From the NCBI GenBank assembly GCA_963804645.1, contig CAWDRG010000019.1, forward strand, positions 1-64,000: a DNA stretch of 64,000 nucleotides. The letters run 5' to 3'. A program made the position numbers and the translations under genes. How positions within the stretch are numbered: position 1 is the stretch's first letter; every line of letters starts with the position of its first letter. The DNA is from an uncultured Bacillota bacterium. Its GTDB lineage: Bacteria; Sysuimicrobiota; Sysuimicrobiia; Sysuimicrobiales; Segetimicrobiaceae. The notes beneath the pieces are model-generated. The model ran no database searches. It was not told the DNA's origin and saw nothing but the letters and a program-made list of their open reading frames with translations. Below are positions 12,082 through 56,972 of this stretch, piece after piece.

Positions 12082-12612
12082 GGCCGAACCTCCGACGGGT
12101 GCGTGACGTCAAATGAATTATATCAAAATATAACATAAGTTGCCGCGCATCGCAAGCCATGTCATCGCGAGCGAACGTCCTCGATACGCATGTGACACGA
12201 CAGCCTCGTCAGCCCACAACGCTCGAACATTCGGCGCTTCTTGACTACGGGCCCGCTTCATTCCGTGCTGTGGGCCGCAGAACGTGGGACTTAACTCACA
12301 AGGCAAGCATCTTCTTACACCCCCGACGCACCAATTGCCTGCACATACGCGGAGATCGTATTGCGACTGCATGATTCGATGTTGGGTAGATGGCGTAAGG
12401 CCGGAACGCGACGGGTGTGCGCGTGTTGAGTTTCGCGCACCCAACAACGCTTCCGGTGCCCCCGGGGGGCCGGGTCAACCAGTCAATTACGGCCGTCTTG
12501 CGTGATCCGCTAGGGATGTCCTACCAGTGTGTCGGCCGGAGAAGGGGCCGAAAAATCAGGTGTTCTCCGCTAAACAATATGCACCAAGGCTGAGCGAAGA
12601 CCGGTGATTGGC

Positions 12613-12657
12613 TTTGGGAGCAGAAGGTCGTCGGTTCAAGTCCGACCGCCCCGACCA
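12613..12657 (+). repeat. 3' half of tRNA-Pro(TGG), att-site relic, copy 2
   Basis: Direct repeat of 582-626; no tRNA 5' half upstream. Confidence 0.85.
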
Positions 12658-12700
12658 TATCGATCAGGTCCAACCCGGAGACATAGGTGACAGTTCGTAC

Positions 12701-13867
12701 CTAAGACATGGGTAACACTTTCGGGCCGAACGGATTTTCGAGCGGTTCGAGCACGCGTGTCTCCAGATCAAAGTACCCCAAGTCATAATCCATAAAGCTG
12801 ACCAGCCAGATGTCATCATACACTTCTTTGATGCCGACGGCTTGTCCCGCGAAGACTTGGCTGAAGTTGATCTTATGGTTGCCCAGACAGATGCGACCGC
12901 ACTGCGTGACCACGACGGTCTTGTCGTGCAGCGGATAATCGATCTCCGGCAAGCCCGTGTAGGGACGTGGGGAAGGGCGGTAGACTTGCGCCGGACACTG
13001 CATGTCCAGGGCTTCGTGCGGGCGTTCGTTGTTGAAGATGTCGATAAATTTGTCAAACCGGGCCTGCTGCTGCAGGAAATTGGCCGCGGCGGGCTTGGTG
13101 GCTTCTTTCTTCAACGTGAGGTGCATCCGTTCATGACGGCCGTTCTGCTGGGGATGGCCGGGCTGGATGCGTTCGATGCCAATGCCGAGGCGTACCCACC
13201 AGACCGCCAGTCGGCTCAAGTTGAAGAGGGCGTGCGCGGACGCGAACGGGACGCCGTTGTCGCTGCGGATGTTGGCCGGGAGGCCGCGCTCCTTAGACAA
13301 CCGCTCAAACCCTGTAAAGGCATAGGTTTCTTTGGTGGAGGAGAGCGCGTCACAGGCCAGCAGAAACCGGCTGGCGTGGTCGGTGACCGTGAGCGGATAG
13401 CAGTAGCGGTGATTGCCCAGCAGGAACTCGCCTTTGTAATCGGTGCACCATACTTCGTTCGGACGGTGCCCAAGCGACAAGGGGGTGCCCTGCGCCCGAC
13501 GCCGCAGGCGCCCACGACGCTCCACCAGGCCGTGGCGATCCAGCACCGCATGGATCGTGCTCTTCGCGGGGATGGGAATCCCTGCGAACCGGCGCGTCAA
13601 GCGCTCGCGGATCTTCCGCGCCCCCCAGCTGGCGTGTTCGCGCTTCACAGTGAGGATGTAGTTCTCGACTTGAACGGGCAGTTGGTTGGCGTAGCGATAC
13701 GGACGCCGGCTGCGGTCCGTGAGCCCGTGGATGCCGCATTCCTGATACCGATCGAAGAGCTTGTAACCGGTCTTGCGGGAAATCCCAAACTCTCGGCACA
13801 GTTCCGCCATCGACTCACCGGCGAGTCGCCGCGCGACAAACTGCATGCGTTCGTCCATCACCGAACA
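12701..13867 (-). pseudogene. IS481-family DDE transposase, first codons (15244-15266) separated by IS256
   Basis: HTH, WCTDYKG, IRSDNG, PQQNGRHER.H; intact version at 54714-55895. Confidence 0.9.
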
Positions 13868-15243
13868 GAGGTACCCTCAAAGGGTGTGTAAATGCTGAAG
13901 GCGGTGTATCCTCCTGAGAGAGAGACCAACAACCAGGCCTTGTCAGAGGCCCAGGGAGGAAACACACCGCCATGGACAAGCAGAACACGGATCACGACAC
14001 GTCGTCAAGTCCCAGCTGGGACAAGTTGGAGGCCTGGGCTCGGATGCAGATCCAGACGTGGTTCCAGGATCTCCTCGAGGCGGAAGTCACGGAGCTGCTC
14101 GGGCGCCGCAAGGCGCAACGCCGACCGGCCGTGGACGCGCCGGCGGGCTATCGCAACGGCTATGGCAAGCCGCGGCGGCTGACGCTGAGCGCCGGGACGA
14201 TTACGGTGCGACGTCCGCGCACCCGCGGGCTGGAGGACCGGTTCGAGAGTCGGCTCTTGCCGTTGTTCGTCCGCCGGACGCGCGAAGTGAACGCCCTGCT
14301 GCCGGAGTTGTATCTGCATGGCCTGGCCCAGGGGGATTTGGCGCTGGCGCTGCGCGGGCTCCTGGGCGAGGCCGCGCCGCTGTCCGCGAGCACGGTGGCC
14401 CGGCTCACAGAGAAGTGGCAGGGGGAGTACGAGGCGTGGAACCAGCGCCGGGTGGACGAGCTGGAAGTGGTCTACCTCTGGGTCGATGGGGTCTATGTCA
14501 AGGCCGGTCTGGAGAAGGACAAGGCCGCGCTCCTGGTCGCGCTGGCGGGCTTGAGTGATGGCCGCAAGGTGCTCCTCGCCGTCGCGAGCGGGCCCCGGGA
14601 ATCCACGGAGGCCTGGGGCACGTTCCTGCGGGCGCTGCGCGCGCGGGGGCTCTGCGCGCCGAAGCTGGTGATCGGGGATGGCCATCTGGGGATCTGGGGC
14701 GCGCTGCGCGACGTGTATCCGGAGGCGGCGGAGCAGCGGTGTTGGAATCACCGCATCGTCAACGTGCTGGACACGCTCCCCAAGCGCGCGCAACCGCAGG
14801 CCAAGCCCCTCCTGACCGCGATCGCGTACGCGGAGACGCGGGAGGAGGCCGAGCGGCGGAAGGCCGCCTTCCAGCGCTGGGCCACCGGCCGGGGGCACGA
14901 GGACGCCGTGCGCGTACTGGATCGCGACTGGGACCGGTTCGTCACCTTCTACCAGTTCCCCCGGGAGCACTGGTCACATCTGCGGACGTCGAACCCGGTG
15001 GAGTCACCCTTTGCGGCCTTGCGGTTGCGCACGGATGCCGCGAAACGCTTCAAGAAGGTTGCCAACGCGCGCGCGATCATCTGGAAGCTGTTGCTGGTCG
15101 CGGAGCGCCGCTCCGACGGCTCACCGCCCCGGAGCGTGCCACTGAGGTCTACCTAGGCGTGAAGTTCGTGAATGGCGTGAAAGTCACGACCAACGGTCAG
15201 GAGGTCGCCGCCTGAAGATTTACACACCTATTGACGGAACCTC
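13868..15243 (+). mobile_element. IS256-family element
   Basis: 26-bp imperfect IRs gaggtaccctcaaagggtgtgtaaat; 8-bp TSD accgaaca at 13860-13867 and 15244-15251. Confidence 0.92.
13972..15215 (+). CDS. IS256 (Mutator) transposase, apparent frameshift near C-terminus
   Basis: YRNGY, YLWVDGVY, IGDG..G.W.A, QRCWNH, LRTSNPVES; ORF stops at 15156 while the natural tail continues in another frame to 15215. Confidence 0.88.
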
Positions 15244-15330
15244 ACCGAACACTCCCTCCAGGGCATCCGCGTCCCCCCCTTTAGGGGAGGAAGTGTTACC
15301 CATGTGTCCGGTACAACCTGTTACCTATGT

Positions 15331-16141
15331 GTGCAGCCCGTAAAGCCATACACTCAGTCGGTGAGAGTCCGACCCGCGGAGTCGCCCAACTTGCCGCGGT
15401 AGTGTTGTCCGGCGTCTCGAAGGAGGTGACTCGCGAGACGGAAGCCCGGACGTACAAGTCTCGGCGGCCCGGCAGAGATATAAAGGCCGCGGTCGGTGGC
15501 CCAGGAGACGAGCGATGGATGGGGCCGCAACATGAAGTGAACACTGCAGCGTCGTTATTCAGGCCCACTCAGAGCTCCGGTAACGGAGTGCTCAGCGCCA
15601 CAGTGGGAATGAGGGTGCCAAGTTTCTACATAGGGGACGAAGGCCAGTGTGGTTGCGGAAGAAGCTGGGCGTGTGCACGCAACCAGCCCTCCGGCGTAGG
15701 GGTGGCGGCAACATCCAAAGGGTGGATGGTCAAAGCGGGGAAGGGCTCTCACCCGTGAGGCCAGTGATATAACCGACTTCACTCGGGAAGTTCACTGGTG
15801 GGGGAGAGTCTGGCGCATGAGGCCGTAGGAGCGATGATCGCTCCGATAACAAGGAGCGGGAGCAAAGGGCCTCTGGGAGCAGGCCAGCGTTGGAGAAGGA
15901 GAGGGTGCGGGTGCTGATAACGCGCTCGGGCTACCGCCAAGATCCGGACCGACGCTGTAGGCTGCAGCAAACCAATCGCTCCCCAGGTACAGGCTGGGAA
16001 GGATCGGGAACGCTGCAACTGAGCGCGTGCTCTTCCAGCCGGATTGGGGAAAACCCGCTATCCGGTTGATAGGGGGCGGGGTGGAACCGTGGTCAGGCTC
16101 CTTAACGGTAACCTGACCGGCGCGCCACCCTGCTACCCGAC
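15331..16141 (+). ncRNA. ORF-less group II intron, copy 1
   Basis: Domain V cagccggat...gaaa...atccggttg (16036-16068) with AGC triad; domain VI with bulged A16135 seven nt from the 3' AC; EBS1 acatag (15628-15633) complementary to the 5' exon end ctatgt; excision restores the IS IR. Confidence 0.88.
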
Positions 16142-16216
16142 CTCAGGCTGGAGGTCAAGGGGTTACGATGATCGCCGATTCTGCGAGCCGCATTTTCGTG
16201 AACACGCCTAGACCTG

Positions 16217-52448: not shown

Positions 52449-54554
52449 TTTTCCAACGCGCCGAGCGGCTGCGGCCCGACTTCTTCCGCGTCCTTTACGA
52501 CGAGTATGTCGCGCACCTGGTGCCGGAGGCCCGCACGACCTACGCCGCCGCCGTGGCGGGGGTGCGCGAGCGCTTCTCCGAGGTCTGGATCCTGGACGGC
52601 ACGCGCCTGGATGCGGTGGCCCATCGGCTCAAGCTCACCTGGGATGTCCGCTCGCCGTTGTTGCCGGGGTGCCTGCTGGTGTGCTACGACCTGTTCCGCG
52701 GCTTCCCCCGGCGCCTCTCGTTCTGCGCCGATGCCGGCCGGAGCGAACTGCAACACGCGCTCGAGCAGCTCCCCACCATTCCCCAAGAGACGCTGCTCAT
52801 TGCGGATCGACTGTTTGCCTCGGTCAAGCTGGTGGCGGCACTCACGCACGGGAAGGGATGGCTCCTCTGCCGCCGGAATCGTCGGCTCACCCTGCGCCAT
52901 CAGCGCTGGCTGCGCCGCGGCCAGTTCAAGGGCGGCACGCTGATGGAGCGCCTCGTCCTCGTCGGGTCGGGGCAAGGCACCCCGCCCCAGCTGATGCGGC
53001 AGATCCGCTATACCCAACATCGACTGACCATTGATCTCTTGACGTCGGTGCTGGACCCTCGGCGCCTCCCCGCAAAAGACGCGCTGGCATGTTACCGATT
53101 GCGCTGGCAAGTGGAACGGCTGTTTTCGGATCTCAAGGGCGTGCTGGATCTCCATCACTTCTACCTCGCCAGCCCGCGCGGGGTGGCCCAACAAGTCTAT
53201 GTCGCGGCCATGGTGTATGCCGCGATGCGCGTGGCGCAAGCCCGCATTGCCGGGGAGCATGACCTGACGCCGGAGGAGTTGTCGCCCACCAAGCTCTTCC
53301 CGCGCCTTGCCCGGGCCTCGCTCACCTTCGTGCTCGGGGACCTGCATTTTGAGGCGACGCAACAGGTGAATCCCCGCGTGCGTTTAATCAAGCCGGATTG
53401 GTCGGAGCTCCCTCCCATGCAGGTCGCGCTGCCGGATCTCCTCGTCGAACCTCGTCGCGGCAAACGCCGCAAGCGTCGGTTCTGCGCGAGCCGGCACCGG
53501 TGGAAATCGTTCGCGCATGTGCGCGGCGCACGTAAGTTCGAATTATGTTAGCGGCGATGACTCTAAGGCGCCGAAGCGCCAACCAGCGCGGCGGAGTTTG
53601 CATTCCCGGACTCCGCTCTTCGGTCCGGCGGTCACCCGCGTCCGCCATTATCCTACCGCGCATGCGCCTCCCGTGCCAAGCGAGGGACTTGACAATTTCA
53701 TCCGTGGCCTGCGGCGACGAGGCGGGGATCCACTTGATGCCCAGTTGGTGGAGCGCCCGGCCGACTTGCGTCGCGGGTACGGCGCCGGTGAGCTGCTCCG
53801 GCAGCGGCAGGCGCGCCTTGGAATCGGCCTGGAATAGGCCTGCGCGGTCGGTGTAGACGGCGGCGGGCACGCCATACCGTTGAATCAGCCGGCGGATGAG
53901 GAGGAAGTAGCCATGGGCATCTTCCTCAGGGCGAAACACCGTGGCGAGGACGGTGCCGGTCGCATCGTCGATCGCGGCATGGAGGACGAGACGAGGGCCG
54001 CGGTCTTCGAGCCACGGATGGTGGCTGCCGTCCATCTGGACGAGGAGGCCGGCCTGGGGCATGCGCTCGCGACGGCGACGATGCCGGGGCGGCCGCCGGG
54101 TGCGGGGACTACTGATCCCGGCCTTGCGGAGCAGGCGGCGGACGGTGGGGCGCGAGAGCTGGATGGCTTCGCGTTAGTCCAGGAGCTCGGTGAAGTGGGA
54201 GTCATTGCTACCGGCATAGCGGCCTTGGGCCAGTGCCAGGACCCGGGCGCGGATCTTCTCGGCGGTCCGACGCGGTGACGCACGTCCCCGATTGCCATGG
54301 GCGAGGGCGGCCGGGTCGTGCTTGCGCACGCGGGCGAGCAAGCGCCGGACATGCCGGATGGAATGGCCGAGCAGGCGTGCGGCGTCAGGCACCGGCAGTC
54401 GGCCCTCGAGGATCTGTGTGATCACTTGTCCCCGTTGCTGCTCTTTGCTGCTCAACGTCACCATCTCCCTGGTCATGGTGCCAGGGTGACAGAATCACTG
54501 ACCAGTTAGGGGGTGACCAAATCATTGAACAATTACAGCATCGACCTCCGGGCC

Positions 54555-54594: not shown

Positions 54595-54670
54595 GCGCCC
54601 GTAGCTCAGAGGAGAGAGCGGCTGCCTTCTAAGCAGCGGGTCGGGGGTTCGAATCCCTCCGGGCGCGCCA
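54595..54670 (+). tRNA. tRNA-Arg(TCT)
   Basis: 76-nt cloverleaf: acceptor gcgcccg/cgggcgc, anticodon arm gctgc-ctTCTaa-gcagc, GTTCGAA T-loop, encoded CCA. Confidence 0.97.
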
Positions 54671-54713
54671 AGCTCAGATGGTCCAACCCGGAGACATAGG
54701 TGACAGTTCGTAC

Positions 54714-55895
54714 CTAAGACATGGGTAACACTTTCGGGCCGAACGGATTTTCGAGCGGTTCGAGCACGCGTGTCTCCAGATCAAAGTACCCCAAGTCATC
54801 ATCCATAAAGCTGACCAGCCAGATGTCATCATACACTTCTTTGATGCCGACGGCTTGTCCCACGAAGACTTGGCTGAAGTTGATCTTATGGTTGCCTAGA
54901 CAGATGCGACCGCACTGCGTGACCACGACGGTCTTGTCGTGGAGCGGATAATCGATCTCCGGCAAGCCCGTGTAGGGACGTGGGGAAGGGCGGTAGACTT
55001 GCGCCGGACACTGCATGTCCAGGGCTTCGTGCGGGCGTTCGTTGTTGAAGGTGTCGATAAATTTGTCAAACCGGGCCTGCTGCTGCAGGAGATTGGCCGC
55101 GGCGGGCTTGGTGGCTTCTTTCTTCAACGTGAGGTGCATCCGTTCATGACGGCCGTTCTGCTGGGGATGGCCGGGCTGGATGCGTTCGATGCCAATGCCG
55201 AGGCGTACCCACCAGACCGCCAGTCGGCTCAAGTTGAAGAGGGCGTGCGCGGACGCGAACGGGACGCCGTTGTCGCTGCGGATGTTGGCCGGGAGGCCGC
55301 GCTCCTTAGACAACCGCTCAAACCCTGTAAAGGCATAGGGTTCTTTGGTGGAGGAGAGCGCGTCACAGGCCAGCAGAAACCGGCTGGCGTGGTCGGTGAC
55401 CGTGAGCGGATAGCAGTAGCGGTGATTGCCCAGCAGGAACTCGCCTTTGTAATCGGTGCACCATACTTCGTTCGGACGGTGCCCAAGCGACAAGGGGGTG
55501 CCCTGCGCCCGACGCCGCAGGCGCCCACGACGCTCCACCAGGCCGTGGCGATCCAGCACCGCATGGATCGTGCTCTTCGCGGGGATGGGAATCCCTGCGA
55601 ACCGGCGCGTCAAGCGCTCGCGGATCTTCCGCGCCCCCCAGCTGGCGTGTTCGCGCTTCACAGTGAGGATGTAGTTCTCGACTTGAACGGGCAGTTGGTT
55701 GGCGTAGCGATACGGACGCCGGCTGCGGTCCGTGAGCCCGTGGATGCCGCATTCCTGATACCGATCGAAGAGCTTGTAACCGGTCTTGCGGGAAATCCCA
55801 AACTCTCGGCACAGTTCCGCCATCGACTCACCGGCGAGTCGCCGCGCGACAAACTGCATGCGTTCGTCCATCACCGAACACTCCCTCCAGGGCAT
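54714..55895 (-). CDS. IS481-family DDE transposase
   Basis: MPWRECSVMDER, HTH, rve core (WCTDYKG, SDNG, NGRHER). Confidence 0.93.
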   Translation of the reverse strand: MPWRECSVMDERMQFVARRLAGESMAELCREFGISRKTGYKLFDRYQECGIHGLTDRSRRPYRYANQLPVQVENYILTVKREHASWGARKIRERLTRRFAGIPIPAKSTIHAVLDRHGLVERRGRLRRRAQGTPLSLGHRPNEVWCTDYKGEFLLGNHRYCYPLTVTDHASRFLLACDALSSTKEPYAFTGFERLSKERGLPANIRSDNGVPFASAHALFNLSRLAVWWVRLGIGIERIQPGHPQQNGRHERMHLTLKKEATKPAAANLLQQQARFDKFIDTFNNERPHEALDMQCPAQVYRPSPRPYTGLPEIDYPLHDKTVVVTQCGRICLGNHKINFSQVFVGQAVGIKEVYDDIWLVSFMDDDLGYFDLETRVLEPLENPFGPKVLPMS

Positions 55896-55959
55896 CCGCG
55901 TCCCCCCCTTTAGGGGAGGAAGTGTTACCCATGTGTCCGGTACAACCTGTTACCTATGT

Positions 55960-56770
55960 GTGCAGCCCGTAAAGCCATACACTCAGTCGGTGAGAGTCCG
56001 ACCCGCGGAGTCGCCCAACTTGCCGCGGTAGTGTTGTCCGGCGTCTCGAAGGAGGTGACTCGCGAGACGGAAGCCCGGACGTACAAGTCTCGGCGGCCCG
56101 GCAGAGATATAAAGGCCGCGGTCGGTGGCCCAGGAGACGAGCGATGGATGGGGCCGCAACATGAAGTGAACACTGCAGCGTCGTTATTCAGGCCCACTCA
56201 GAGCTCCGGGAACGGAGTGCTCAGCGCCACAGTGGGAATGAGGGTGCCAAGTTTCTACATAGGGGACGAAGGCCAGTGTGGTTGCGGAAGAAGCTGGGCG
56301 TGTGCACGCAACCAGCCCTCCGGCGTAGGGGTGGCGGCAACATCCAAAGGGTGGATGGTCAAAGCGGGGAAGGGCTCTCACCCGTGAGGCCAGTGATATA
56401 ACCGACTTCACTCGGGAAGTTCACTGGTGGGGGAGAGTCTGGCGCATGAGGCCGTAGGAGCGATGATCGCTCCGATAACAAGGAGCGGGAGCAAAGGGCC
56501 TCTGGGAGCAGGCCAGCGTTGGAGAAGGAGAGGGTGCGGGTGCTGATAACGCGCTCGGGCTACCGCCAAGATCCGGACCGACGCTGTAGGCTGCAGCAAA
56601 CCAATCGCTCCCCAGGTACAGGCTGGGAAGGATCGGGAACGCTGCAACTGAGCGCGTGCTCTTCCAGCCGGATTGGGGAAAACCCGCTATCCGGATGATA
56701 GGGGGCGGGGTGGAACCGTGGTCAGGCTCCTTAACGGTAACCTGACCGGCGCGCCACCCTGCTACCCGAC
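55960..56770 (+). ncRNA. ORF-less group II intron, copy 2
   Basis: Same sequence and same insertion point as 15331-16141 (offset 40629); differences seen at 56210 and 56695. Confidence 0.88.
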
Positions 56771-56972
56771 CTCAGGTTGGAGGGATATAAACAAGGCGTA
56801 CCGCGCGGTCAGCACCCTTCGGAGGGCGCAAAAAAGCAGCGGGCGACGCGGCCTTTGGCTGATCGCATGCAGTTCGCCCAAGTGCATGTCGTTCTCGTGT
56901 GGTTCGCTAACGTCGGTCTGCGTGGTCGGTGCCGGCACCATACTGAACGCCTCTGCCAGTTTGCCCGCATTG

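What the first reader, a model, noticed from the sequence alone, without database searches (positions are those of the whole stretch)
54595..56783. IS481-like element inserted at a fixed 9 nt downstream of the CCA of different tRNAs
Seen: copy 2 begins (ggtccaacccggagac) 9 nt after the CCA of tRNA-Arg(TCT) (54670 to 54680). Copy 1 begins 9 nt after the CCA of a tRNA-Pro(TGG) 3' half (12657 to 12667). Orientation is the same, with the transposase pointing toward the tRNA. The 9-nt spacers are unrelated (agctcagat, tatcgatca). There is no canonical TG...CA end and no TSD apart from a GG at both ends. Known: DDE insertion sequences usually lack a targeting protein, and tRNA targeting is typical of tyrosine integrases or TnsD-guided Tn7. 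Inference: this single-ORF transposase recognises a generic tRNA 3' feature (T-arm/acceptor/CCA) and inserts at a measured distance, leaving the tRNA intact.
Basis: partly seen in the sequence, partly recalled or inferred. Interest (0 to 1): 0.88.

Follow-up and report, generated by a model that had tools for sequence, protein, structure and literature searches.

The report
Insertion sequence that homes behind tRNAs
A small jumping gene of the IS481 family sits nine bases behind an arginine tRNA gene, and its relatives in many bacterial phyla land at almost the same spot behind many different tRNA genes, a targeting habit I could not find described for this kind of element.

Summary
In the window a 1.29-kb IS481-family element lies 9 nt past the CCA of tRNA-Arg(TCT). 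A second copy lies 9 nt past a tRNA-Pro(TGG) 3' fragment. A third copy elsewhere in the genome lies 9 nt past tRNA-Arg(TCG). Each copy has a 3-bp target duplication (GAT, TCA, ACG). Bases 55960-56770 are not IS sequence: they are an 811-nt group II intron-like insert inside the left inverted repeat. Orthologous tRNA-Arg loci in three related genomes are empty and carry a single GAT. Of 71 scorable homolog loci (64-91% identity, several phyla), 68 abut a tRNA 3' end, always at the transposase's 3' side, 8-11 nt past position 76 (9 nt in 41, 10 nt in 23). These cover 22 anticodons. IS481 relatives at 20-52% identity show none (0 of 90 loci). The element has no room for a guide RNA or a helper gene. 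The transposase itself most likely reads the conserved tRNA T-arm region as DNA, but this step is inferred. Eight literature searches found no description. This scan noted the same habit before on other DNA (e1-7580973, e1-4101950).

The parts
54595..54670 (+). tRNA-Arg(TCT) gene with encoded CCA. This is the target landmark and it is left intact.
   Evidence: ARAGORN; Rfam RF00005, 69.6 bits
54671..54679 (.). 9-nt spacer AGCTCAGAT. Its last 3 nt (GAT, 54677-54679) are one copy of the target-site duplication.
   Evidence: Sequence. Empty orthologous sites read CCA + 6 nt + GAT once.
54680..54731 (.). Right (tRNA-proximal) inverted repeat, 52 nt, with tip GGTCCAACCCGGAG followed by two ACATRGGTRACA repeats. 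It overlaps the transposase stop codon.
   Evidence: Shared boundary of 5 genome copies. The IR was compared by eye with the left end.
54714..55895 (-). Transposase, 393 aa, single ORF. It has two N-terminal HTH domains, an RNase H-like DDE core and a C-terminal beta-barrel.
   Evidence: ORF. Pfam rve, rve_3, HTH_32, LZ_Tnp_IS481. NCBIfam NF033577 scores 217.1 bits against a cut-off of 224. AlphaFold2 pLDDT 90.4.
55922..55959 (.). Inner 38 nt of the left inverted repeat.
   Evidence: Matches the right IR in inverted orientation. In relatives it is contiguous with the tip.
55960..56770 (+). 811-nt ORF-less group II intron-like insertion inside the left IR, 13 nt from the IS tip.
   Evidence: Rfam RF02003, 58.2 bits against gathering score 49. 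Absent from the same IR position in the homolog loci printed. Two further copies sit in solo IR remnants.
56771..56783 (.). Outer 13 nt (tip) of the left inverted repeat, CTCAGGTTGGAGG.
   Evidence: It corresponds to CTCAGGCCGCTCA of relatives.
56784..56786 (.). Second copy of the 3-bp target-site duplication (GAT).
12610..12657 (+). tRNA-Pro(TGG) 3' fragment, from about the anticodon stem to the CCA. This is the landmark of copy 1. The start coordinate is approximate.
   Evidence: Sequence. The last 31 nt are identical to the full tRNA-Pro(TGG) on C11. ARAGORN does not call it.
12667..13867 (-). Copy 1 of the IS: right IR plus transposase residues 6-393. The TSD copy TCA lies just before it at 12664-12666.
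   Evidence: 99.4% identical to 54680-55880; tblastn
13868..15241 (+). IS256-family element inserted into copy 1's transposase gene.
   Evidence: ORF 13972-15156. Pfam Transposase_mut, 190 bits. The flanking IS segments overlap by 10 nt.
15242..16154 (.). Remainder of copy 1: transposase 5' end, left IR inner part, intron-like insert (15331-16141) and IR tip (16142-16154). The TSD copy TCA follows at 16155-16157.
   Evidence: 99.7% identical to 55871-56783. Rfam RF02003 at 15355-15535. Flank.

Best explanation
The interval holds one copy of a roughly 1.29-kb IS481-family insertion sequence, carrying an 811-nt group II intron-like passenger in its left end. It inserted 9 nt behind tRNA-Arg(TCT) and duplicated 3 bp (GAT).

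The element belongs to a clade of IS481 elements (at least 63% transposase identity) found in Acidobacteriota, Pseudomonadota, Verrucomicrobiota and other phyla. This clade homes to the 3' flank of tRNA genes in general.

Shown: insertion is precise, always in one orientation, 8-11 nt past tRNA position 76, with a 3-bp duplication, behind tRNAs of at least 22 anticodons. The tRNA stays intact.

Inferred: the element encodes only the transposase and its two inverted repeats, so it has no room for a guide RNA or a helper gene. The transposase complex therefore most likely recognises the conserved 3' module of the tRNA gene as double-stranded DNA. The best candidate is the T-arm (GGTTCRAnTCC), the main block conserved across all the target tRNAs apart from the dispensable CCA. 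The two strands would then be joined about 30 bp (three helical turns) downstream.

The different outer 13-14 bp of the two inverted repeats probably set the orientation. Transposition itself is assumed to be copy-out-paste-in, as in the related IS3 family (recalled, not tested).
For: Own genome: 3 of 5 right-end junctions lie at CCA+9 behind three different tRNAs or fragments, with unrelated spacers and TSDs GAT, TCA and ACG.

Empty sites: tRNA-Arg(TCT) loci of relatives G075, G078 and G072 are colinear with the window's two flanks and carry GAT once. The trailer of the genome's full tRNA-Pro(TGG) matches the reconstructed empty site of copy 1.

Homologs: there are 79 loci. Of these, 5 lack the tip and 3 have less than 35 nt of flank. 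Of the 71 scorable loci, 68 abut a tRNA 3' end. The spacer is 8 nt in 1, 9 in 41, 10 in 23 and 11 in 3. All 68 flanks are distinct. 44 are full tRNAs with 22 anticodons and 24 are not called by ARAGORN; most of those 24 are 3' fragments. 25 of 63 scorable loci have a perfect 3-bp TSD, against about 1 expected by chance.

Orientation: among the 84 loci at 63% identity or more, 47 have an ARAGORN tRNA within 160 nt. All 47 are at the transposase's 3' side on the opposite strand, and none has any other geometry.

Cultured strains: S. meliloti 1021 and RRI128, R. leguminosarum and Peteryoungia carry copies 9-10 nt behind tRNA-Arg(CCG) or tRNA-Ser(CGA).

Controls by identity class: 0 of 71 loci at 38-52% and 0 of 19 loci below 38% have a tRNA within 160 nt on either side. 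The most distant ones show the classical CTAG target.

Compactness: the IS is 1292-1304 bp in most loci, of which 1182 bp is ORF.

CCA is dispensable: L022, L198 and L199 keep the T-loop spacing without a CCA. The logo of the 3' 41 nt shows the T-arm as the main invariant block besides the CCA.

Fold: the model resembles IstA, TnsB, MuA and retroviral integrases, with HTH domains, a DDE core and a beta-barrel.
Against: No experiment or DNA-protein model supports direct read-out, and it could not be tested here.

The tRNA usage is skewed. There is no Leu, Lys, Glu, Gln, Asp, His, Tyr, Trp or Cys among the 44 full tRNAs, although their T-arms in the own genome look the same as those of used tRNAs. 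T-arm recognition alone does not explain this.

Two sites with a mutated T-loop (L037, L038) still carry the element. This may be decay after insertion.

Residues specific to the clade against its sister groups are few: 9, of which 5 lie in the C-terminal domain (p = 0.04).

Three of 71 copies are not at a tRNA: L018, L029 (which abuts another IS copy) and L058. Two of 5 own-genome junctions are not at a tRNA either.

The three copies in this genome carry the intron in the left IR. Copy 1 and the C11 copy are also broken, so current activity here is not shown.
Confidence: 0.6

Rival explanations
1. Host-factor tethering. The transposase does not read the tRNA gene itself. It docks on a conserved host protein or complex that sits at tRNA gene ends, such as transcribing or terminating RNA polymerase or a tRNA-processing enzyme, much as yeast Ty3 uses the Pol III machinery (recalled).
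For: The tRNA-type bias could reflect expression level or gene context rather than sequence. No sequence rule separates used from unused tRNAs.
Against: The position is precise to about 1 nt in 64 of 68 events across several phyla. About a third of the copies lie behind 5'-truncated tRNA fragments that lack their own promoter context. Decayed fragments on plasmids keep the spacing from the T-loop. All this is indirect, because fragments may have formed after insertion.
Confidence: 0.15
2. Nucleic-acid structure or tRNA-guided capture. The transposase recognises a tRNA-like fold of the displaced DNA strand. Alternatively it binds mature tRNA, which pairs with its own gene and marks the site.
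For: This would explain why many unrelated tRNA species are hit by one protein and why 3' halves suffice. The element itself has no room for a guide.
Against: A 3-bp staggered joining needs duplex DNA at the site. The skew among tRNA types is not expected if any tRNA could guide. No precedent among DDE transposases is known to me (recalled). Nothing here tests it.
Confidence: 0.12
3. Random insertion followed by selective retention. Copies land anywhere, and only those in the harmless spot behind tRNA genes survive.
For: tRNA trailers are plausible safe sites. Some bias among tRNA types may come from selection.
Against: Selection cannot give a single orientation (47 of 47) and a 9-10-nt window (64 of 68). 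Sister lineages with the same architecture sit in ordinary intergenic DNA without this pattern (0 of 71).
Confidence: 0.03
4. The tRNA end belongs to the mobile unit, as an att-like repeat of an integrase-type element, rather than being its target.
For: 24 of 68 flanks are tRNA 3' fragments like those left at island borders.
Against: 44 of 68 are complete genes with 22 anticodons, and all flanks and spacers differ. The TSDs place the element's boundary 9-10 nt outside the tRNA. Empty orthologous sites keep the tRNA. No tyrosine or serine recombinase is encoded.
Confidence: 0.01

Closest known systems
IS481 family insertion sequences (IS481 of Bordetella; NCBIfam NF033577)
   Same: Single-ORF DDE transposase with N-terminal HTH and leucine-zipper region and an rve core. 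Terminal inverted repeats of about 50 bp. Best family match by far. A TSD of 3 bp lies within the 2-15 bp range reported for the family (PMC10045372, passages read).
   Different: Classical members give mostly 6-bp TSDs (PMC10045372) and use a CTAG-type target, which I saw in the 24-30%-identity controls. This clade gives 3-bp TSDs and homes behind tRNA genes. The word tRNA does not occur in that survey of the family. The score is 7 bits under NCBIfam's cut-off.
IS1202-family elements related to ISAjo2 that target dif/pdif sites
   Same: DDE insertion sequences found in one orientation at a fixed short distance (5 bp) from a conserved protein-binding site (PMC10132070, abstract start seen in the listing). 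The IS1202 group falls within IS481 in a published tree (PMC10045372, passage). This is the nearest known behaviour in a related family.
   Different: Their landmark is the XerC/XerD site, not a tRNA gene. TSD lengths differ. The proteins are not close: the ISNCY_2 model scores only 32 bits.
tRNA-gene-targeting retrotransposons of eukaryotes (yeast Ty3 and Ty1, Dictyostelium TRE5-A and TRE3)
   Same: A retroviral-integrase-type enzyme places the element at a set distance from tRNA genes of many kinds without harming them. This is a safe-haven strategy (recalled, not from a call).
   Different: Those elements use Pol III transcription factors as tethers and lie mostly upstream (recalled). Bacteria have no Pol III machinery. 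This is a DNA transposon placed downstream of the gene.
Tn7 (TnsD/attTn7) and type V-K CRISPR-associated transposons that home next to tRNA genes
   Same: A DDE transposase of the same structural class (TnsB is among the best fold matches). Insertion is downstream of a conserved gene, in one orientation (recalled; review PMC11406308 seen only in the listing).
   Different: They need separate targeting proteins or a guide RNA plus an AAA+ regulator. Here there is one ORF in 1.29 kb.
Genomic islands and prophages integrating into tRNA genes by tyrosine recombinases
   Same: They use tRNA 3' regions as landmarks and are the likely source of the tRNA 3' fragments next to a third of the copies.
   Different: They recombine inside the gene at a shared core sequence and leave direct repeats of the tRNA end. 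This element inserts outside the gene with a 3-bp duplication and encodes no recombinase.

Membership tests
IS481 family | Transposase matches the family profile (NF033577) above its curated cut-off | tested here: inconclusive
   217.1 bits against a cut-off of 224. The next family, IS3, scores 106 bits. Pfam LZ_Tnp_IS481 scores 30.8 against 22.2, and rve and rve_3 pass.
IS481 family | One uninterrupted transposase ORF, with no programmed frameshift as in IS3 | tested here: met
   393-aa ORF at 54714-55895. 44 full-length homologs have an intact frame over the whole tblastn match; 26 more end at a stop at about codon 391.
IS481 family | Terminal inverted repeats and a short target-site duplication (2-15 bp in the family) | tested here: met
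   Imperfect IRs of about 52 nt. 3-bp TSD in the own copies and in 25 of 63 homolog loci. The family range comes from PMC10045372.
IS481 family | RNase H-like DDE catalytic core flanked by DNA-binding domains | tested here: met
   AlphaFold2 model, pLDDT 90.4. Foldseek gives IstA, TnsB, MuA and retroviral integrases at E values down to 3e-15. The catalytic residues were not assigned one by one.
Tyrosine-recombinase integrative elements at tRNA genes | Encodes a tyrosine (or serine) recombinase and recombines within the tRNA gene, leaving att repeats | tested here: not met
   Only an rve-type transposase is encoded. Insertion lies 9-10 nt outside the gene with a 3-bp TSD.
Tn7-like / CRISPR-associated transposons | Several genes (TnsB with TnsC and a TniQ/TnsD target selector, or a Cas effector and guide) | tested here: not met
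   The element is 1292-1304 bp with a single ORF of 1182 bp.
Group II intron (for the 55960-56770 insert) | Domains I-IV and catalytic domains V/VI; usually an RT/maturase ORF in domain IV | tested here: inconclusive
   Domain I-IV model RF02003 matches at 58.2 bits against 49. No domain V/VI family matches at E up to 1. No RT ORF lies inside. 12 group II RT genes are found elsewhere in the genome.

The most novel reading that the evidence does not exclude
The transposase does not read DNA sequence at all. It binds a mature tRNA (or the tRNA-shaped fold of the gene's displaced strand) and uses it as a generic guide to that tRNA's own gene. One protein could then find dozens of different genes. 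This would make it a naturally RNA-guided DDE transposase that borrows host tRNAs as guides.
Probability: 0.06. Interest if true: 0.95.

Novelty: new variant of a known kind. Interest (0 to 1): 0.8.

Why it matters
Site-specific DDE transposition in bacteria is known mainly where a separate targeting protein or a guide RNA exists. Here one 393-residue protein with two 50-bp ends appears to find a single-base-precise, harmless spot behind many different tRNA genes, in hosts from several phyla. This is a bacterial counterpart of the tRNA-targeting retrotransposons of yeast and Dictyostelium.

The finding gives a simple system for asking how an integrase-type enzyme measures distance from a landmark. 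It explains a recurrent feature of tRNA neighbourhoods and island borders in soil bacteria. It also suggests a compact tool for safe-site insertion next to conserved genes.

The element includes copies behind the tRNA-Arg(CCG) gene on the S. meliloti second megaplasmid, so culturable hosts are available for tests.

Tried and rejected
1. Read-through of the transposase ORF into the tRNA in the 72% and 68% identity groups was an artefact. tblastn aligned across a stop codon at about codon 391.

2. Mimicry of the inverted repeat. I asked whether the tRNA flank read outwards mirrors the right IR read inwards, which would suggest capture of an IR-like site. Mean identity over 66 loci was 0.20-0.30 at every offset from -12 to +12 and 0.285 at offset 0, so there is no signal. 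A local resemblance in this window's own IR (TTCGTACC against the T-loop complement) is not conserved in other subfamilies.

3. My first automatic search for the left end locked onto the inner IR repeat. I corrected it by eye and by pattern.

4. No terminator-like or promoter-like site stands out in the IS (2 terminator-like sites against 1.9 expected, none in the right end). The tRNA plus IS-end transcript does not fold better than shuffles (z = -0.8).

5. No tmRNA gene lies next to any copy.

6. The search for homologous proteins returned only close relatives (8000 candidates capped, best 120 at 75-89% identity). It gave no context.

7. The IQ-TREE run did not finish in time. The tree used is FastTree only.

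8. Public runs are all short contigs from peat and soil metagenomes. They give no usable evidence on circles, empty sites or transposase expression. No RNA-library contig lay on the transposase gene, which proves nothing.

9. No sequence rule separating used from unused tRNA types was found in the own genome's 51 tRNAs.

10. Literature: searches found no description of tRNA-flank targeting by IS481-type or other single-gene DDE elements. Neither did passages of PMC9208149, PMC13274422, PMC10045372 and PMC9569102. ISfinder itself and subscription journals could not be searched.
Full report
**What is at the coordinates.**

ARAGORN and Rfam place tRNA-Arg(TCT) at 54595-54670 with an encoded CCA. 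Nine bases later (AGCTCAGAT), at 54680, starts a sequence that recurs in the genome.

The 393-aa ORF at 54714-55895 on the minus strand carries Pfam rve, rve_3, HTH_32 and LZ_Tnp_IS481. It matches NCBIfam's IS481 transposase model at 217 bits. That is 7 bits under the cut-off and twice the score of the next family.

The right end is a 52-nt inverted repeat (54680-54731). The left repeat is split. Its inner 38 nt end at 55959 and its outer 13 nt lie at 56771-56783. Between them is an 811-nt insert (55960-56770) that matches the group II intron domain I-IV model RF02003.

In the homolog loci printed (other genomes) the two halves of the left repeat are contiguous (...CCTATGT|CTCAGG...). Those elements are 1292-1304 bp long. 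The IS proper here is therefore about 1.29 kb and the intron-like element is a later passenger.

Directly outside the two tips the same three bases occur, GAT at 54677-54679 and at 56784-56786.

**Copies in the same genome.**

BLAST of the interval against the 22 contigs and inspection of the junctions give five right ends.
- Copy 1 (12667 onward) lies 9 nt (TATCGATCA) behind a tRNA-Pro(TGG) 3' fragment. The fragment's last 31 nt equal the full tRNA-Pro(TGG) on contig C11. Its TSD is TCA. An IS256-family element interrupts it at 13868-15241.
- A rearranged copy on C11 lies 9 nt (GTCCTTACG) behind a complete tRNA-Arg(TCG). Its TSD is ACG.
- A 91%-identical copy (C11:16809-18047) and a 159-nt remnant (C19:295204) are not next to a recognisable tRNA end.

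So 3 of 5 junctions are at CCA+9.

**Empty sites.**

The DNA to the right of the element was searched in 23 genomes of the same family. Three relatives (G075, G078, G072) have tRNA-Arg(TCT) followed directly by sequence colinear with the window's right flank. They read CCA, six bases, GAT, then A..AAGG... That is exactly the window's left flank joined to its right flank with one GAT.

The trailer of the genome's intact tRNA-Pro(TGG) (TATTTATCAAGGG...) likewise resembles the reconstructed empty site of copy 1 (TATCGATCAAGGGG...).

**Relatives elsewhere.**

A scan of one genome per species returned 79 loci encoding transposases 64-91% identical. Most are in Acidobacteriota MAGs. Others are in records titled Verrucomicrobiia, Rokubacteria, alpha-, beta- and gammaproteobacteria, Bdellovibrionales and others.

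Five loci end before the IS tip and three have less than 35 nt of flank. Of the 71 scorable loci, 68 have a tRNA 3' end next to the right tip.

| Bases between position 76 and the tip | Loci |
|---|---|
| 8 | 1 |
| 9 | 41 |
| 10 | 23 |
| 11 | 3 |

All 68 flanks differ.
- Forty-four are complete tRNAs with 22 different anticodons.
- Twenty-four are not called by ARAGORN. Most are 3' fragments that begin near the anticodon stem and lack the 5' acceptor strand. Two are cut by contig ends and one may be complete.
- The three exceptions are L018, L029 (which abuts another copy of the IS) and L058.

A perfect 3-bp duplication flanks 25 of 63 loci whose left tip I could place. About one would be expected by chance.

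Spacer and TSD positions carry almost no sequence information. L022 has no encoded CCA but keeps the spacing from the T-loop.

**Cultured strains.**

tblastn against plasmids found 61 records with 60-80% identity, mostly large rhizobial replicons. I inspected seven.

| Record | Neighbour of the right tip | Spacer |
|---|---|---|
| S. meliloti 1021 pSymB | tRNA-Arg(CCG) | 10 nt |
| S. meliloti RRI128 | tRNA-Arg(CCG) | 9 nt, different spacer and different IS lineage |
| R. leguminosarum pSK03 | tRNA-Arg(CCG) | 9 nt |
| Peteryoungia desertarenae | tRNA-Ser(CGA) | 9 nt |
| Methylocystis rosea plasmid | tRNA-like 3' fragment | about 10-11 nt |
| Ensifer adhaerens plasmid | decayed tRNA-like 3' fragment, no recognisable CCA | T-loop at the expected distance |
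| Rhizobium tumorigenes pTi932 | decayed tRNA-like 3' fragment, no recognisable CCA | T-loop at the expected distance |

**Controls and phylogeny.**

Thirty IS481-profile loci came from 94 genomes of the window's own phylum. Eighty metagenome loci were found with a 53%-identical representative. Both sets were scored the same way.

Counts of ARAGORN tRNAs within 160 nt of either end of the transposase gene, by identity to the window's protein:

| Identity class | Loci with a tRNA | Geometry |
|---|---|---|
| 63% or more | 47 of 84 | all at the 3' side, opposite strand |
| 53-59% | 4 of 12 | see the sister lineages below |
| 38-52% | 0 of 71 | none |
| below 38% | 0 of 19 | none |

The most distant ones sit in CTAG sites, as classical IS481 does. 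Two control loci (L091, L106) come from genomes flagged as unpublished. No claim depends on them.

In a FastTree tree of 183 transposases, all 75 rows scored as tRNA-adjacent fall in one clade of 84. Support is 97 and the minimum identity inside is 63%. Three of the 75 were rescued by hand after the pattern missed them. Two scorable rows inside the clade are not at a tRNA.

The clade was delimited by the trait, so this is a description, not a test. The identity-class counts above are independent of the trait.

**Two sister lineages.**

- The nearest sister group has 7 loci at 53-59% identity and similar tips. It shows a looser link. One copy lies 29 nt behind tRNA-Cys. One lies behind a tRNA-Pro fragment plus its terminator. 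One has a flank too short to judge and one (L145) has no recognisable tip or tRNA. Three have no tRNA.
- The next group (L140, L143, L148, L149; support 100) abuts tRNA-Ile, a tRNA fragment, tRNA-Pro and tRNA-Ser in 4 of 4 cases. Here the contact is at the other end of the element, upstream of the transposase gene, only 6-8 nt past the discriminator base.
- In that second group the tRNA-proximal tip (GGTATATACCGG in L143) is the same as the proximal tip of main-clade members L074 and L079. The end that faces the tRNA therefore seems to be specified by the outer bases of the repeat, not by the direction of the gene. This rests on few loci.

**The protein.**

An AlphaFold2 model built on 89 sequences is confident (pLDDT 90.4). 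It shows:
- two helical DNA-binding domains (8-54, 70-116);
- an RNase H-like core (144-300);
- a seven-strand C-terminal barrel (321-380).

The best structural matches are IstA of IS21, TnsB of Tn7-like elements, MuA and retroviral integrases. In those enzymes the barrel next to the catalytic core contacts target or flanking DNA (recalled).

Against all more distant representatives, 12 of 21 clade-specific residues lie in 320-385. Against the two sister groups plus outer relatives only 9 remain, 5 of them in the C-terminal part (p = 0.04). This is only a weak pointer to the barrel.

**How it most likely works.**

Shown:
- precise, oriented insertion 8-11 nt behind tRNA genes of many kinds;
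- a 3-bp duplication;
- the tRNA left intact;
- the trait confined to one lineage of a larger group with the same architecture.

Inferred:
- The element holds nothing but the transposase gene and its repeats, with 34 nt after the stop codon and about 77 nt before the start. The selector is therefore the transposase complex itself or something every host supplies.
- Apart from the CCA, which is dispensable, the main block conserved across all targets is the T-arm. It lies a fixed 22 nt before position 76. The duplicated bases are therefore about 30 bp, three turns of the helix, from the T-loop.
- I take direct read-out of that block on duplex DNA as the most likely mechanism (0.6).

Unexplained: no Leu, Lys, Glu, Gln, Asp, His, Tyr, Trp or Cys tRNA occurs among the 44 full targets. 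These make up 16 of the 51 tRNAs called in the own genome.

**The intron-like passenger.**

- It lies on the plus strand, 13 nt from the IS tip, in all three copies that retain the left end.
- Two further copies (C11:11628-12496, C15:243035-243886) sit in solitary left-repeat remnants of a related IS subtype. It therefore appears to home into this repeat.
- It has no reverse-transcriptase ORF. The genome has 12 such genes elsewhere.
- Contigs from two RNA libraries cover 55914-56678 and 55947-56506. That does not prove transcription.
- I cannot tell whether the composite still moves.

**Comparison with what is known.**

The element is an IS481-family member by protein and architecture. It differs in TSD length and target from the classical members.

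The nearest known behaviour is that of the IS1202-family ISAjo2 group. Those elements sit 5 bp from XerC sites in one orientation (PMC10132070, abstract start), and the group is reported to fall within IS481 in a tree (PMC10045372).

Eight full-text searches and four papers read in part gave no account of tRNA-flank homing by such elements. ISfinder and closed journals were out of reach.

Two earlier notes of this scan on other genomes report the same habit. My counts here are independent of them.

**Verdict.**

The finding is real, not a chance pattern, and it is general. I rate it a new variant of a known kind, with interest 0.8.

Noticed in passing
window 55960-56770 and 15331-16141; also G000 C11:11628-12496 and C15:243035-243886: An 811-nt ORF-less group II intron-like element (Rfam RF02003 only) sits 13 nt from the tip of the IS's left inverted repeat in every copy that retains that end. 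It also sits in two solitary repeat remnants, as if it homes into this repeat. Contigs of two RNA libraries cover most of it.
   Followed up: partly
loci L140, L143, L148, L149 (metagenome contigs): A sister lineage (53-55% identity) abuts tRNA 3' ends in 4 of 4 cases, but with the opposite end of the element (upstream of the transposase gene) and only 6-8 nt past the discriminator base. Its tRNA-proximal tip resembles the proximal tip of main-clade members.
   Followed up: partly
loci L138, L142, L140 (right end): In the nearest sister groups some copies lie just after terminator hairpins or 29-38 nt behind a tRNA or tRNA fragment. This hints at a looser ancestral preference for tRNA trailers or terminators.
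   Followed up: no
L080 (S. meliloti 1021 pSymB) and L200 (S. meliloti RRI128): The tRNA-Arg(CCG) gene of the second megaplasmid carries two different lineages of this IS in two strains, at +10 and +9 with unrelated spacers. The same gene has therefore been hit independently.
   Followed up: partly
homolog loci L001-L079: tRNA usage is skewed. Ser, Gly, Pro, Arg and Ala dominate, and no Leu, Lys, Glu, Gln, Asp, His, Tyr, Trp or Cys tRNA occurs among 44 full targets. No sequence rule explains it.
   Followed up: partly
G000 C18:27605, C11:26013, C9:1277384, C4:32579 (tRNA trailers): Several tRNA genes of this genome (Ile-GAT, Pro-TGG, Arg-CCG, Ala-GGC) are followed by a similar trailer of the form TATTTATCAA-G-TT... 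It is a recurring post-tRNA motif of unknown role.
   Followed up: no
window 13868-15241: An IS256-family element (Transposase_mut, 394-aa ORF at 13972-15156) is inserted into the transposase gene of copy 1. The flanking IS segments overlap by about 10 nt, which is probably its own target duplication.
   Followed up: partly
window 52520-54476: Just upstream of tRNA-Arg(TCT) lies a second, broken rve-type transposase on the minus strand (HTH ORF 54177-54476, rve ORF 53391-54062) next to an IS4-like DDE_Tnp_1 ORF (52520-53548). The tRNA is therefore flanked by insertion sequences on both sides.
   Followed up: partly
run X1 laid on window 54707/55923 (table 5c): One low-depth peat-metagenome contig joins the inner right repeat to the inner left repeat with 13 other letters between. 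This may be a miniature transposase-less derivative of the IS.
   Followed up: no
G000 C4:142033-142483: A 55-nt tRNA-Arg 3' fragment (96% identical to 54616-54670) is followed about 157 nt later by a segment 83% identical to the intron-like element.
   Followed up: no
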